Shown here in pieces: positions 17,790-47,361 of a DNA stretch of 56,675 nt (position 1 is its first letter; the number at the start of each line of letters is the position of its first letter). The stretch spans positions 1-56,675 of the forward strand of contig CAJYIP010000028.1 of the NCBI GenBank assembly GCA_913775275.1. The letters are read 5' to 3'. The stretch is from Patescibacteria group bacterium. GTDB lineage: Bacteria > Patescibacteriota > Saccharimonadia > Saccharimonadales > Saccharimonadaceae. The position numbers and the translations under genes were made by a program. Under the pieces are notes generated by a model. The model did not search any database, was not told where the DNA came from, and saw only the letters and a program-made list of their open reading frames with translations.

Positions 17790-17830
17790 ATTGTACAAAA
17801 AAATTAGCACTCTGGTCAAGGGAGTGCTAA
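17790..17830 (-). promoter_or_regulatory. CIRCE (HrcA operator) overlapping the sigma70-type clpP promoter
   Basis: TTAGCACTC-N9-GAGTGCTAA at 17804-17830; minus strand TTGACC inside the spacer, TACAAT 6 nt before ATG. Confidence 0.92.
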
Positions 17831-17864
17831 TTAGATTGATAGATGAATCTACCTCAAAAGCTCA

Positions 17865-19148
17865 CTATGCGTTCAATTCAACTAAGCGATCAATCGTCTT
17901 GTCTGTTATGACACGATTTGCTATATCGTCACGAGCCTCTTCAGTGCCGAGCTGCTCGGCCATCTGAGGGTTGTTTGCGTATTGTTGCTTGAACTGTGCA
18001 ACTTGCTCGTCAACCTCAAGATCAGTCAGCTCAATGTTTTCCGCTTTGGTGACTTCTGATAGGACAAGTCCGGCCTGCACACGACGAGTCGCTGCTTCCT
18101 TAACTTCTTTTTCGCGCCATGCGTCGATGTCTTTATATCCTTGCGACTGAATGTACGCGTCAAGGCTAAGGCCACGGTACATCAAATTCTGTTGAAAGTC
18201 CTGTTCGATAGATTGCATTTGGTCGGCGACCAATGCTTCGGGTGCAGATACTTTGCTCTTTTCAATGAGCTCAGTGATTAGGGCATCCTTGTACTTGTCT
18301 TCAACTTCTTTTTCTTTTTGAGCAGTCAGCTCGCGCTTAATGTCTTCTTTGAGGTCTTTGATCGTTTCAAATGGACCAGCTTTTTTGGCGAAATCATCGT
18401 CGAGTGCAGGTTTGACTGGTTCAAGTACTTTTTTCAGCACAACGCTAAAGACAACTTTTTGTCCGGCGAGATCGCTCGAATGGTATTCTTTTGGAAATTC
18501 AAGGTCGAGGTCGAATGAGTCGTTGGCTTTGTGACCGATAACGCCATCTTCGAAACCTGGAATGAACTGGCCTGCGCCAAGACTTAATGTGTAGTCGGTA
18601 GCGGTACCACCATCAAAAGCAACGCCATCTTTTTTACCAGTAAAGTCGATGACAACTTCATCACCATCTTTAGCTGCTCGTTCAACTTCTTTTTTCTCAG
18701 CGAAGCCGTTTTTCATGCGCTCGAGAACGTCAGTGACATCCTTTGCTGCAATCTTGACGTCATCTTTTTTGGCAGAGAGTTTTTTGTAATCGCCAAGTTT
18801 GACTTCAGGAATAACTTCTACTTCAGCAGTAAACTCGAGCTCTTCGCTCGGCACGAATTTTTTGACTTCGACAGATGGTCGGTCAATTGCTCGAATAGAT
18901 TGTTCGGTAAACGAGACAGCAACGGCTTTGCTGATGGCGTCGTCAAGCGCTTGCTCTTGAAGTGCCTGAGGGCTGACGTGCTTTGCAGCGACGCTGGCTG
19001 GGACTTTACCTGAACGGAAGCCAGGAACTTTTACGGTTTTGCTCAATTTTGTCAAAGCGACCTGTTCTGCATCGGCAAGTTCATTTGCGCCAAGAACAAT
19101 AGTCACCTGTACTTTGGTGTCGGATAGTTGTTTCACTGTAGTCTGCAT
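17865..19148 (-). CDS. tig: Trigger factor
   Basis: VPGFRSGKVP ribosome-binding motif, FKBP domain (FIPGFEDG); tig-clpP synteny. Confidence 0.96.
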   Translation of the reverse strand: MQTTVKQLSDTKVQVTIVLGANELADAEQVALTKLSKTVKVPGFRSGKVPASVAAKHVSPQALQEQALDDAISKAVAVSFTEQSIRAIDRPSVEVKKFVPSEELEFTAEVEVIPEVKLGDYKKLSAKKDDVKIAAKDVTDVLERMKNGFAEKKEVERAAKDGDEVVIDFTGKKDGVAFDGGTATDYTLSLGAGQFIPGFEDGVIGHKANDSFDLDLEFPKEYHSSDLAGQKVVFSVVLKKVLEPVKPALDDDFAKKAGPFETIKDLKEDIKRELTAQKEKEVEDKYKDALITELIEKSKVSAPEALVADQMQSIEQDFQQNLMYRGLSLDAYIQSQGYKDIDAWREKEVKEAATRRVQAGLVLSEVTKAENIELTDLEVDEQVAQFKQQYANNPQMAEQLGTEEARDDIANRVITDKTIDRLVELNA

Positions 19149-19173: not shown

Positions 19174-20454
19174 TTAGGACGCAAGGTGACGGACAATGTC
19201 ATCGGCTGTTAAACGCTGCTCCGTTTCGGTCTCGAGGTTTTTCAGGACGTAGTCCGTATCATCCTGAGCGCCGACGAACATTGCGTAGCCTATTCGCTTC
19301 TTGAGAGCCGTCTTCATTTGTTTATCGAGCTTTCGGGCCGATAATTCAATTTCTACATTGACACCAGCTCGTCGCAGTTCGGTAGCGACAGATGCTGCCT
19401 TTTCATAAGCATCACCAATCACGACGACATATACGTCAGTCGTCGAGCGATACAGCGGCAACAAGTCGTGCACAGCCAAAAAGTTTTCGATCATTGTGTT
19501 ACCTGGCGCCATGCCGACAGCCGAAATCGGCTCTGCGCCGAAAAGTCCAACAAGGCCATCATATCGACCACCACCAAATAGTGAGCGATTATTTTCAGGG
19601 TGAGTGTCGAATGCTTCAAAGACTGAACCGGTGTAGTAATCAAAACCGCGCATAAGGGTTGGATCAAACACAACTGCCGTCACTCCTTGCGCGGCGAGCA
19701 GACTAAAAAGCTTTTTTAACTCATCGAGCGCATCACTAAGCTGCAGCGCTTCAGGCAGTTGATCAATTGTCTGAGCATTCAATAGTGCTTCGAGGCTTTC
19801 GATCCGGGAATCATCACCAAAAATGAGGATAGCTTGCTCACGGAAGGCTTCATTGCTCACTTTAGCTCGTCGATCGAGGAGTTTAATCATTTGCAGAGAT
19901 TGTACTTCATCAAGACCAAGGTACTGTGTCATCGTGTAGTGTATAAAATGACGGTTGTTAACTTTGATAACGTAGTCGCCATCGCTCGCGCCAAATTCTT
20001 TGAGAATAGCGTCAGCGATTGAGATAATTTCCGCATCAGCGGTAATTGCATCGACACCGAACAGATCGACGTTTAATTGCCAAAATTCTCGTTCGCGACC
20101 ACGCTGCGGGCGTTCATAACGCATAAAATTCGCAATTGAATACAGGCGTGCAGGATAGGCTAACTCTTGTCGACGAGCTGCCACCATACGGCTAATCGTT
20201 GGTGTCATTTCTGGGCGGATCGCTACGTTACGGCCGCCACGATCAGTAAAGGTATATGTCTGCTCGTTGACGAGCTCTTGGCCACTTTTGGCCGCATACA
20301 TATCAAGCGGCTCGAGTGTCGGAGCACCATACTCTTGATAGCCAAACCGCTCAACAACTTTACGCCATACGTTGAAGATATGGTTCTGAACGAATTTATC
20401 TTCAGGGTAGTAATCGCGCGTGCCTTTGTAGGGTTGAGTTGAAAGTGGGTTCAT
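19174..20454 (-). CDS. hisS: Histidyl-tRNA synthetase
   Basis: KGTRDYYP, RPEMT, RYERPQRGREREFWQ, RGFDYYTG, GGGRYD. Confidence 0.97.
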   Translation of the reverse strand: MNPLSTQPYKGTRDYYPEDKFVQNHIFNVWRKVVERFGYQEYGAPTLEPLDMYAAKSGQELVNEQTYTFTDRGGRNVAIRPEMTPTISRMVAARRQELAYPARLYSIANFMRYERPQRGREREFWQLNVDLFGVDAITADAEIISIADAILKEFGASDGDYVIKVNNRHFIHYTMTQYLGLDEVQSLQMIKLLDRRAKVSNEAFREQAILIFGDDSRIESLEALLNAQTIDQLPEALQLSDALDELKKLFSLLAAQGVTAVVFDPTLMRGFDYYTGSVFEAFDTHPENNRSLFGGGRYDGLVGLFGAEPISAVGMAPGNTMIENFLAVHDLLPLYRSTTDVYVVVIGDAYEKAASVATELRRAGVNVEIELSARKLDKQMKTALKKRIGYAMFVGAQDDTDYVLKNLETETEQRLTADDIVRHLAS

Positions 20455-21039: not shown

Positions 21040-23134
<2,095 letters not shown>

Positions 23135-23202: not shown

Positions 23203-23289
23203 TGGTGCGGATGAGAGGACTTGAACCTCCACGTCATTGCTGACACTAGCACCTGAAGCTAGCGCGTCTACCAATTCCGCCACATCCGC
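23203..23289 (-). tRNA. tRNA-Leu (anticodon CAG)
   Basis: GCGGATGTGGCGGAATTGGTAGACGCGCTAGCTTCAGGTGCTAG...GGTTCAAGTCCTCTCATCCGCACCA; long variable arm, encoded CCA. Confidence 0.97.
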
Positions 23290-23352
23290 ATATCGTACGT
23301 TGTCGCTCAGCGCGTTACGCATATGTACGTTTTACGCAGCTGCCACATCCGT
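23290..23352 (-). repeat. Degenerate copy of tRNA-Leu(CAG) 5' half upstream of the gene
   Basis: CGGATGTGGCAG...GTAACGCGCT versus tRNA CGGATGTGGCGG...GTAGACGCGCT, offset 63 nt. Confidence 0.65.
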
Positions 23353-24997: not shown

Positions 24998-25117
24998 ATC
25001 CCCGTAATTTCTAGAGCTTTACCTCTATCATAGCACAAGCATTTATCGATCAACCGTCTCTTTTCACGGTCAGCTAAATTTGCTACAATGCATGAGTACC
25101 AAACAGTTCAGCCTCAT

Positions 25118-25177
25118 GCGGATGTGATGGCTACGTGAACGAAAATCGTTCGTAGACACGCTCGTGTGACACATTAT
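25118..25177 (+). repeat. Degenerate copy of tRNA-Leu(TAG) 5' half with a hairpin in place of the D-loop
   Basis: GCGGATGTGATGG-[CTACGTGAACGAAAATCGTTC]-GTAGACACGC versus tRNA GCGGATGTGGTGG-AATTG-GTAGACACGC, offset 60 nt. Confidence 0.75.
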
Positions 25178-25262
25178 GCGGATGTGGTGGAATTGGTAGA
25201 CACGCATGCCTTAGGAGCATGTGCCGTGAGGCGTGAAGGTTCAAGTCCTTTCATCCGCACCA
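25178..25262 (+). tRNA. tRNA-Leu (anticodon TAG)
   Basis: GCGGATGTGGTGGAATTGGTAGACACGCATGCCTTAGGAGCATG...GGTTCAAGTCCTTTCATCCGCACCA. Confidence 0.97.
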
Positions 25263-25301
25263 AGCGATAACGATTACCGTTATCAAGAACTGATCTAACA
25301 G

Positions 25302-25337
25302 AGGTCGCCATGTACCGATGGCGGCCTTTCGCTTTAT
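25302..25337 (+). terminator. Terminator-like hairpin after tRNA-Leu(TAG)
   Basis: AGGTCGCCAT-GTACCG-ATGGCGGCCT followed by TTCGCTTTATT. Confidence 0.65.
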
Positions 25338-25524: not shown

Positions 25525-27075
25525 ATGAGAAATTTTTATCTGAAAGAGTTACATTTCGGAGGCTATCGAAAGTTCAAGTTCGAGCCACAAATTTTCAAGC
25601 CCTCAACACCTGATTATATAACGCCAGGAAGCGGACTCAATATCATTGTTGGCTCCATCGGCTCAGGAAAGACATCCCTTATGGAGATCATTGGACTCGT
25701 ACATGGTCAAGGAATGTTCGACCGTGACCGACTAGCGATTAACGACTCGGAGGCCGGGAGACTCCCTACTGTTAAGGCCGTTCACGTATCGCCAGGGCAC
25801 GAGGACACACCCGAAGTTCAATACGAACAGCGCATAGAGTTCAACTGGAATGGGCGAAAGGTGCAAGAATCCTACGCCAATGATTTTGCACACCTAAGTC
25901 AAGAGGATCAGCCTAGCGGATCGTCCATGAAGTACATCCGAGCAAATCGCAGTTTCACAGGCCAATCATCCGACTCTTATAGCAATACAATCTTAGAAGC
26001 CATTGACATTGAATCACGAACCGAGACTATCAATTTAGCAGCCGTCGCACAGGCCATCGTCAACGGGTCCGGGCCGGGAGGGCCAAGTATCGACGCCTTC
26101 CGCAACAAGCTTCAGTCATTTAGTCACATCGGATTAGAAATCGAAGACGTGCGTATTACCGAGCCCCACAGAAGTGGACAGCCTATTAGAGACTTCGAAG
26201 CAAAGGTAGTTAATGGAGAATGGCACAACGTCCAGGATCTTTCTGATGGCACAAAGGAACTTCTCTGCTGGATATACGAACTTAACTTTGGCGAATTATC
26301 CAATTGCCGAACAGTCTGCATTGACGAAATCGAGAGATCACTCCATCCGCAGATACAAGTGGCGCTCATGGAGGTGATTCGAGATCGATCTACCCACCAA
26401 CAGTTCTTCATAACGACACACTCACTGCATGTTGCAGACCCTCATACCGCCGCAAGTATACATCGCATTACCAGCGATGGTCAGTTATGTAGCGTTCCGT
26501 CAGAGGATTTTCCTCCTCTTTCAATCTTCTCCATTGATCATCGTCGAGCATTTTTTACCGATGAGGTTCTTTTCGTCGAAGGGGTAGACGACCAAAGTTT
26601 TTATATTGAGAAGCTCGTTGATTATGGATACAAGGATCTTGTTACCAAGGTATTCACTCTTGGAGGCAAGGGAAATACCGAACGGTTTGAAAAAATTATG
26701 CGTGATCTAAACATAAAGTTCAGCGCCATTGTCGATGATGACTTCTCCGACAGAATAGGGAGACTTAACAGTGATAAACGCAGATTCCTTGAAAAAACCC
26801 TCAAAGAACTAGATAACCTAGGCAAATTAAGTGGCCAAGTCGATATTGAAGGACTGGATGCCAATCTGGCTTCTCCTAACACTGTTCCACGAGCACGCAA
26901 CGCTTCAAACGTATCTGGAAGACATTTTCGAAAGGTCGTAGACAAGAACATATATCCACTCAAGTTTGGCCGACTCGAAGAGTACAAGAGTGGAATAGAT
27001 CGCCTAGGGCAAGATGTGCGTACGGAGCAGGAAGCTGAGTTGCGGGATATTTTTGCCGCAATCAAGGATGCGTAA
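25525..27075 (+). CDS. OLD-family ATP-dependent nuclease (ABC ATPase + TOPRIM)
   Basis: Walker A GSIGSGKTS, signature LSDG, Walker B CIDEIERSLHP, ITTHS, TOPRIM FVEGVDD, GGK, IVDDD. Confidence 0.85.
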   Translation: MRNFYLKELHFGGYRKFKFEPQIFKPSTPDYITPGSGLNIIVGSIGSGKTSLMEIIGLVHGQGMFDRDRLAINDSEAGRLPTVKAVHVSPGHEDTPEVQYEQRIEFNWNGRKVQESYANDFAHLSQEDQPSGSSMKYIRANRSFTGQSSDSYSNTILEAIDIESRTETINLAAVAQAIVNGSGPGGPSIDAFRNKLQSFSHIGLEIEDVRITEPHRSGQPIRDFEAKVVNGEWHNVQDLSDGTKELLCWIYELNFGELSNCRTVCIDEIERSLHPQIQVALMEVIRDRSTHQQFFITTHSLHVADPHTAASIHRITSDGQLCSVPSEDFPPLSIFSIDHRRAFFTDEVLFVEGVDDQSFYIEKLVDYGYKDLVTKVFTLGGKGNTERFEKIMRDLNIKFSAIVDDDFSDRIGRLNSDKRRFLEKTLKELDNLGKLSGQVDIEGLDANLASPNTVPRARNASNVSGRHFRKVVDKNIYPLKFGRLEEYKSGIDRLGQDVRTEQEAELRDIFAAIKDA

Positions 27076-47305: not shown

Positions 47306-47344
47306 TTATAATAAAAATTAGCACTCGGGTCAAGCGAGTGCTAA
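47306..47344 (-). promoter_or_regulatory. CIRCE (HrcA operator) overlapping the clpC operon promoter
   Basis: TTAGCACTC-N9-GAGTGCTAA at 47318-47344; minus strand TTGACC-17 nt-TATAAT. Confidence 0.92.
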
Positions 47345-47361
47345 TTCTTTACTATGACATG

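What the first reader, a model, noticed from the sequence alone, without database searches (positions are those of the whole stretch)
25096..25177. Same shadow half-tRNA leader on tRNA-Leu(TAG): a shared precursor architecture
Seen: GCGGATGTGATGG-[21 nt]-GTAGACACGC exactly 60 nt upstream of the tRNA, the insert forming a hairpin (GAACGA-AAA-TCGTTC closed by CTAC/GTAG). Both Leu leaders also carry AGTACCA just after an extended -10. Inference: the copy could compete for the tRNA's 3' acceptor strand, acting as a folding/processing switch, an RNase P or LeuRS decoy, a decoy against tRNA-targeting toxins, or the scar of an element that targets the D-loop. Two parallel cases with equal insert length suggest selection or one specific mechanism.
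Basis: partly seen in the sequence, partly recalled or inferred. Interest (0 to 1): 0.75.

Follow-up and report, generated by a model that had tools for sequence, protein, structure and literature searches.

The report
Hairpin-split half-copy ahead of tRNA-Leu
A broken copy of the start of a leucine tRNA gene, split by a short hairpin, sits just ahead of the intact gene; such copies come and go among related ultra-small bacteria and are likely the tolerated, gene-less footprint of a tiny selfish DNA element that invades tRNA genes, not a regulatory switch.

Summary
Observation confirmed: tRNA positions 1-13, a 21-nt hairpin insert and positions 19-28 lie 60 nt ahead of tRNA-Leu(TAG). Six of 35 tRNAs in this genome carry such a copy. 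In the genus it is common but patchy (strict script: TAG 10 of 38 genes, CAG 13 of 26, TAA 5 of 21), with 0, 1 or 2 copies. A close strain lacks exactly these 60 nt. Flanks follow the local tRNA, while inserts are shared between Leu loci of one genome. In the same family and order, the same layout encloses a roughly 90-aa GIY-YIG nuclease gene. Best reading (0.6): a gene-less member of a hairpin element that invades tRNA D-arms, tolerated because the copy is predicted to fold on itself. Against this: no nuclease in 40 of 40 genus genomes, and the Leu-type insert is not dispersed. A functional leader stays possible (0.2); no RNA data were available. Not found in print in 10 searches. This scan reported the nuclease-bearing form before on other DNA; what is new here is the gene-less Leu form and its turnover.

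The parts
25061..25089 (+). Predicted sigma-70 promoter: -35-like hexamer 25061-25066, extended -10 at 25081-25089
   Evidence: consensus match only, 9 of 12; 2 found vs 0.8 expected in shuffles
25095..25101 (+). AGTACCA at the predicted transcription start; not specific to the module
25118..25130 (+). Copy of tRNA-Leu(TAG) positions 1-13 (12 of 13); position 25127 matches the tRNA in strains X4, X5, X8
25131..25151 (+). 21-nt hairpin insert standing in place of D-loop positions 14-18; drifted member of an insert family found at Leu tRNAs in several families of the order
25152..25161 (+). Copy of tRNA positions 19-28 (10 of 10)
25162..25177 (+). Short inverted-repeat tail (25162-25167) and A/T-rich linker; predicted to pair back on the copy
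25178..25262 (+). Intact tRNA-Leu(TAG) with encoded CCA
25300..25329 (+). Terminator-like hairpin
23290..23352 (-). Sister module ahead of tRNA-Leu(CAG): positions 1-13 (11 of 13), 21-nt insert 23339-23319, degenerate 19-28, tail and linker
23203..23289 (-). Intact tRNA-Leu(CAG)

Best explanation
The 60-nt stretch is a partial tandem copy of the tRNA's 5' end, split in the D-loop by a short hairpin, and is likely the gene-less footprint of a selfish hairpin element that invades tRNA D-arms while leaving an intact gene downstream. Shown: the layout; its recurrence on 6 of 35 tRNAs here and in several phyla; the same break points (after position 13, resuming at 18-19) in cassettes that enclose a small GIY-YIG nuclease gene in the same family; 0/1/2-copy polymorphism. 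Inferred: (1) the hairpin lands in the D-loop, which would inactivate that copy, and only chromosomes that also duplicate the 5' part and keep a whole gene survive; (2) the copy would be transcribed as a 5' leader, fold back on itself through the insert and the inverted tail, spare the 3' acceptor strand and be removed by RNase P; (3) the 11-13-nt direct repeat drives loss and doubling by slippage or unequal recombination; (4) the insert moves between Leu genes within a lineage, by a mobiliser acting in trans or by ectopic recombination. The mobiliser of this Leu-type insert is not identified.
For: Polymorphism: a contig of run X6 (another study; 14 differences in 393 nt upstream) skips exactly 25116-25175 with 11 nt of microhomology. 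Two copies in G002, G012, G014, G026 and collapsed remnants in G001, G012, G191; sister genomes on a flanking-gene tree differ. Inserts are more alike across Leu loci of one genome (0.49, 10 pairs) than at one locus across genomes (0.00, 133 pairs; 0 of 2000 permutations), while flanks match the local tRNA (position 11: 30 of 31; acceptor 6.6 of 7 vs 5.1 for the same isoacceptor of other genomes). GTDB scan: 73 loci, 70 with an insert of 10 nt or more. The Bacteroidota insert is a dispersed palindrome (5-19 sites per genome vs 0-2 control in 5 genomes) that also sits in terminator-like loops, and in L117 forms 374-nt units of half-tRNA + hairpin + 99-aa GIY-YIG ahead of an intact tRNA-Arg. In the order, 54 of 151 genomes have small GIY-YIG ORFs; 13 of 30 loci lie within 300 nt of a tRNA and 9 of 30 have a hairpin-split 5' copy ahead of the ORF; 3 of 15 in the family (L422, L424, L433). 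No whole tRNA-Leu with a D-loop hairpin among 124 metagenome matches (46 of 64 parts scanned). Folding: mean native acceptor-stem probability 0.64 with real leaders vs 0.30 with tail and linker shuffled, 0.33 with the native D-loop in place of the insert, 0.95 without leader (27 precursors); for this locus 1.00 vs 0.64 and 0.67. RNase P RNA and protein genes are present.
Against: The small-GIY-YIG model finds nothing in 40 of 40 genus genomes though it rings in 13 of 90 other family genomes. The Leu-type insert was never seen with a nuclease ORF (GIY-YIG hits only in 5 distinct Bacteroidota loci among 245 loci) and is not dispersed: no second copy in G000, 4 matches in 151 order genomes, 3 of them in Leu copies and 1 at a contig end. 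The long insert is conserved across families of the order and insert and tail are structured (better than shuffles in 49 of 51 each), which also fits a function. In 9 of 27 precursors the copy is predicted to out-compete the native acceptor stem. The permutation test treats kin as independent; the match at position 24 (31 of 31) is partly built into the search.
Confidence: 0.6

Rival explanations
1. A domesticated 5' leader with a function: the copy would act as a co-transcriptional folding aid, processing switch or protein-binding module that tunes the output of Leu (and Phe, Arg) tRNA genes.
For: Common in the genus without any small GIY-YIG gene; insert conserved across families and found almost only at Leu tRNAs; flanks and tail track the local tRNA and keep pairing; competition for the acceptor strand predicted in 9 of 27 precursors.
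Against: Precisely absent in a close strain and from most genus genes examined; copy number, insert length (10-24 nt) and fold vary; unrelated dispersed palindromes fill the same site in other phyla; no Rfam match.
Confidence: 0.2
2. A displaced 5' end left by an integrative element or by horizontal replacement of the tRNA gene (att-type scar), later hit by a hairpin that stabilised it by interrupting the repeat.
For: Insert-free exact 5' copies exist (L013, L065); some copies keep another acceptor variant than the adjacent tRNA (G001, L013); close strains diverge right after the tRNA 3' end, so the locus is an island boundary.
Against: No cargo or integrase lies between copy and gene (spacing 48-78 nt in the 73 pattern-limited loci); break points recur across tRNA types and phyla; 70 of 73 carry an insert; 0 matches in viral contigs for the Leu pattern.
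Confidence: 0.12
3. A released small RNA that would serve as a decoy for tRNA-cutting toxins or for LeuRS.
For: Only the resemblance to a tRNA 5' half (direct from the sequence).
Against: The copy lacks the anticodon loop, variable arm, T-arm and discriminator, and its D-loop is replaced; predicted fold is one long irregular hairpin. That these parts are the usual recognition elements is recalled knowledge.
Confidence: 0.05
4. Chance resemblance or assembly artefact.
For: One genus assembly shows a duplicated tRNA start across an N gap (L126).
Against: Score far above null; present in contigs of independent studies and in dozens of genomes.
Confidence: 0.01

Closest known systems
Ssn nucleases with NTS/SRM hairpin repeats (SsnA of Neisseria meningitidis; PMC11893778; seen: abstract, passages, sections 8 and 12)
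   Same: Single-domain GIY-YIG protein of about 94 aa tied to 20-50-nt hairpin repeats that also occur without the gene; authors propose a mobile-element origin.
   Different: The SRM motif is absent from this leader and from 85 of 85 genus Leu leaders, and present near 2 of 45 small GIY-YIG loci; 'tRNA' does not occur in that paper's main text; no target duplication in the parts read; the cassette proteins here match UPF0213 and SLX1 structures best.
tRNA-gene-targeting integrative elements leaving partial tRNA duplicates (PMC9897764, passages seen; integrase site preferences recalled)
   Same: Partial tRNA copy next to an intact gene.
   Different: Here the 5' part is duplicated upstream, split in the D-loop, with no integrase or cargo; 'D-loop', 'hairpin' and 'upstream' do not occur in that paper's main text.
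Free-standing GIY-YIG homing endonuclease SegB of phage T4 (PMC2988022, passages seen)
   Same: GIY-YIG gene lodged among tRNA genes, with an upstream RNA hairpin.
   Different: Phage-borne, intergenic, spreads by double-strand-break repair; no split tRNA copy in the passages read; this locus has no gene.
REP/RAYT and IS200/IS605 hairpin systems (recalled; mentioned in PMC11893778 discussion)
   Same: Gene-less short hairpins thought to be moved in trans by a single-strand nuclease.
   Different: No Y1_Tnp gene in G000; insert not dispersed.
This scan's earlier unpublished reports of hairpin + GIY-YIG cassettes in tRNA genes (e1-4952772, e1-1354048, e1-884228, e1-811617)
   Same: 5' half-copy with a D-arm hairpin ahead of an intact tRNA.
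   Different: Here the insert family is A/T-richer, Leu-specific, never seen with the gene, and persists in a genus where the gene was not found.

Membership tests
Ssn/SRM system | SRM degenerate hairpin motif | tested here: not met
   0 in the window leader, 0 of 85 genus Leu leaders, 1 in G000 vs 5 in the reversed genome
Ssn/SRM system | Single-domain cd10448 GIY-YIG gene in the genome | tested here: not met
   No small GIY-YIG in G000; only 490- and 525-aa ORFs. CDD assignment itself was not available.
Ssn/SRM system | Site-specific ssDNA cleavage next to the hairpin | not testable with these tools
   needs purified enzyme
Hairpin + small GIY-YIG cassettes in tRNA genes (unpublished, this scan) | 5' tRNA copy split by a hairpin in the D-arm, intact gene downstream | tested here: met
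   same break points as L422 and L424
Hairpin + small GIY-YIG cassettes in tRNA genes (unpublished, this scan) | GIY-YIG ORF between copy and gene, or at least in the genome | tested here: not met
   0 of 40 genus genomes; positive in 13 of 90 family genomes
Hairpin + small GIY-YIG cassettes in tRNA genes (unpublished, this scan) | Same hairpin sequence found with and without the ORF | tested here: inconclusive
   Met for the Bacteroidota palindrome (L117 vs L042, L053) and, with one difference, for the palindrome of L406 vs L100; not found for the Leu-type insert
Integrase att-site duplicates | Integrase or cargo between the duplicated parts | tested here: not met
   16 nt between copy and gene
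REP/RAYT, IS200/IS605 | Y1 transposase in the genome and dispersed hairpin copies | tested here: not met
   (genome 94% complete)
Known structured RNA families (Rfam 15) | Match at gathering score | tested here: not met
   only tRNA in the window region and in 20 related loci
Intron-containing or split tRNA | A whole tRNA that carries the insert, or a separate 3' half | tested here: not met
   Intact gene directly downstream; no whole Leu tRNA with a D-loop hairpin in 124 metagenome matches

The most novel reading that the evidence does not exclude
A selfish tRNA-invading hairpin has been domesticated in Saccharibacteria into a new class of tRNA 5' leader: rebuilt from each resident tRNA gene, fitted with a lineage-specific hairpin, and used as a copy-number-tunable (0, 1, 2) folding or processing switch that sets Leu, Phe and Arg tRNA supply.
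Probability: 0.15. Interest if true: 0.85.

Novelty: new variant of a known kind. Interest (0 to 1): 0.48.

Why it matters
It shows that tRNA D-loops are a recurrent landing site for short hairpin elements in several phyla, and that streamlined genomes of about 0.8 Mb keep such footprints on up to half of some tRNA genes without a detectable mobiliser. The inserts appear to move between isoacceptor genes while flanks are taken from the resident gene, which points to an undescribed route of small-element spread. Natural 0-, 1- and 2-copy alleles make the neutral-versus-functional question directly testable. Such copies can also mislead att-site and tRNA-fragment annotation.

Tried and rejected
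AGTACCA as part of the module: rejected. Equal insert length as independent convergence: rejected, one insert family. Dispersed copies of the inserts in G000: none. Excess of GNA-triloop DNA hairpins in G000: none against other loops. Y1 transposase: none. Duplicated unit starting at the transcription start (RNA-templated copy): fits L071 only, not general. The 456-495-aa GIY-YIG protein as mobiliser: by eye no association with copies across the genus (not tested statistically). SRM motif: not met. Viral contigs: 0 matches for one Leu pattern. Transcription: no RNA run holds this locus; one 160-nt contig of RNA run X15 carries a related copy but includes the -10 element, so it is probably DNA and is not counted. 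A recalled name for such repeats (SPIDR) proved to be an old name for CRISPR. The careful tree did not finish; the quick single-gene tree (33 of 37 genomes; 4 lacked the gene in the fetched stretch) is used only for sister pairs and two clades.

Full report
1. Observation. The sequence is as described. Window 25118-25130 copies tRNA-Leu(TAG) positions 1-13 (12 of 13), 25131-25151 is a 21-nt insert, 25152-25161 copies positions 19-28, and the intact tRNA starts at 25178. A two-block score gives 22 against a maximum of 16 in 150 random stretches. A promoter-like site ends at 25089 and a terminator-like hairpin lies at 25300-25329, so the copy would lie in the 5' leader (inferred). Contigs of other studies carry it. 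Rfam finds only the tRNAs. The genome is 758 kb; named records with the same leader type are Saccharibacteria, so I place it in Saccharimonadales (inferred).

2. Same genome. Six of 35 ARAGORN tRNAs have an upstream copy above the null: Phe(GAA), Leu(TAA), Leu(CAG), Leu(TAG), Arg(CCT) and, weakly, Glu(TTC). The inserts have no further copies in the genome. There is no Y1 transposase. RNase P RNA and protein genes are present.

3. Genus. A strict script finds copies at 10 of 38 TAG genes, 13 of 26 CAG genes and 5 of 21 TAA genes; by eye 12 of 37 genomes for TAG and 14 of 26 for CAG. Phe has 6 full copies and 1 partial in 29 loci, one more locus being unreadable across an N gap. Two tandem copies occur in G002, G012, G014 and G026, collapsed remnants in G001, G012 and G191, and sister genomes on a quick tree of the flanking FAD-oxidase gene differ. 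A contig of run X6, about 96% identical upstream, skips exactly the 60 nt at an 11-nt microhomology; X4, X5, X8 and X9 keep the copy. The Phe count and the 40-genome tallies include the unpublished genome G029 as a negative; no positive claim rests on it.

4. What follows the locus and what follows the lineage. Flanks match the adjacent tRNA: position 11 in 30 of 31 copies, position 24 in 31 of 31 (partly built into the search), acceptor strand 6.6 of 7 against 5.1 for the same isoacceptor of other genomes. Inserts are alike across Leu loci of one genome (0.49, 10 pairs) and not at one locus across genomes (0.00, 133 pairs); none of 2000 permutations reached this, though kin are not independent. 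The tail behind the copy is an inverted repeat of positions 19-32 (longest match 5.3 vs 3.3 nt in shuffles, 51 copies). The two 21-nt inserts of this window align to one family that recurs in several families of the order; of 11 matches in 221 genomes, 8 lie 58-206 nt ahead of a Leu tRNA, 1 is a copy at a contig end and 2 look like chance. AGTACCA is unrelated to the module.

5. Other phyla. One pattern scan of GTDB gave 73 loci: 32 titled Saccharibacteria or Saccharimonad-, 4 unnamed or Patescibacteria with the same insert type, 28 Bacteroidota, 9 others. Seventy have an insert of 10 nt or more. In five of them (L041, L055, L067, L096, L097) the downstream tRNA is itself cut at the anticodon loop. 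The Bacteroidota insert is a palindrome with 5-19 sites per genome against 0-2 for the control in 5 genomes; it also sits in terminator-like loops and in D-arms of Arg and Gly copies. L100 and L052 show a clean 20-nt palindrome insertion in the D-loop. A metagenome scan for whole Leu tRNAs with a lengthened D-loop gave 124 matches; none was a whole tRNA with a hairpin insert, one was nearly whole but cut in the T-loop (46 of 64 parts scanned). Viral contigs gave none.

6. Link to a nuclease. L117 holds 374-nt units of upstream flank, hairpin-split tRNA-Arg start and a 99-aa GIY-YIG ORF ahead of an intact tRNA. Such ORFs occur in 54 of 151 order genomes. Of 30 loci, 13 lie within 300 nt of a tRNA and 9 have a hairpin-split 5' copy in front of the ORF, 7 split in the D-arm region and 2 in the anticodon loop. 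In the family, 3 of 15 loci do; L422 and L424 (tRNA-Asn) break after position 13 and resume at 18-19, as here. The proteins keep invariant Tyr, His and Glu and a nearly invariant Arg and match UPF0213 and SLX1 structures. Against a direct link: the model finds nothing in 40 of 40 genus genomes and the Leu-type insert was never seen with an ORF.

7. Folding. Most copies are predicted to form one long irregular hairpin. Real inserts and tails beat their shuffles in 49 of 51 copies each. In 27 modelled precursors the native acceptor stem has mean probability 0.64, against 0.30 with tail and linker shuffled, 0.33 with the native D-loop restored and 0.95 without leader; for this locus 1.00 against 0.64 and 0.67. 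But the copy is still predicted to win in 9 of 27, the 82-nt leader as a whole folds no better than shuffles (z = -0.39), and these models ignore tertiary structure and modifications.

8. Mechanism. I commit to a gene-less footprint of a tRNA-invading hairpin element (0.6). Shown: layout, recurrence, shared break points with nuclease cassettes, polymorphism. Inferred: inactivation of the invaded copy, survival through partial duplication, self-folding and RNase P removal, loss and doubling through the direct repeat, movement of the insert between Leu genes. Unknown: the mobiliser. Rivals: functional leader (0.2), att-type scar later hit by a hairpin (0.12), decoy RNA (0.05).

9. Comparison with what is known. 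It works like hairpin repeats tied to small GIY-YIG nucleases, but it is not a member of the Ssn/SRM system (motif and gene not met; PMC11893778 abstract, passages and sections 8 and 12 read). It differs from integrase duplicates (PMC9897764, passages) and from T4 SegB (PMC2988022, passages). Ten full-text searches found no description; other papers were seen as listings only, no supplements were read, and subscription papers are not covered. The scan's earlier notes describe nuclease-bearing cassettes and T-loop mirror cases on other DNA; they are unchecked notes, not support.

10. Verdict. Real, recurrent, not found in print, probably a tolerated passenger. New variant of a known kind; interest 0.48.

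Noticed in passing
G000 C17:13362-13401, C23:2233-2271, C26:7255-7294, C48:18153-18195, C59:8751-8789: Five copies of a roughly 40-nt two-hairpin element nested in the loops of long hairpins, four of them next to tRNA genes; a strict pattern found it only in G000 among 40 genus genomes.
   Followed up: partly
G000 C48, 77 nt upstream of tRNA-Arg(CCT) at 18304: Leader holds a 19-nt direct copy of the tRNA start and a 15-nt reverse complement of the D-arm; predicted to refold the precursor.
   Followed up: partly
G000 C36, upstream of tRNA-Gln(CTG) at 20143: Leader hairpin resembles a Leu(TAG)-type copy with its middle missing, although it sits on a Gln gene; may be chance.
   Followed up: no
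window 25525-27075 (+) and 21911-22972 (-): OLD-family-like ATPase/TOPRIM gene downstream of Leu(TAG) and a DNA methylase with RAMA domain downstream of Leu(CAG); close strains diverge right after 25263, so the tRNA 3' end borders a variable island.
   Followed up: no
L119, L121, L122, L442 (spacers of the longer, about 100-nt units): A second conserved motif (small hairpin followed by an A-rich block) recurs in the spacers of longer Leu units from three families of the order.
   Followed up: no
L004:1490-1770 and L406: Nearly whole tRNA-Leu copies interrupted at the T-loop by another insert, ahead of an intact gene.
   Followed up: no
L415: Three 84-nt tandem units of a tRNA-Gly 5' part with a hairpin in the anticodon arm, with a small GIY-YIG gene behind the intact tRNA.
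   Followed up: no
window 17799-17832 and 47313-47346: Two near-identical inverted repeats of CIRCE type (HrcA operator; name recalled).
   Followed up: no
L058: Record titled as an alphaproteobacterium carries a Bacteroidota-type tRNA-Leu and insert; probably a binning error.
   Followed up: no
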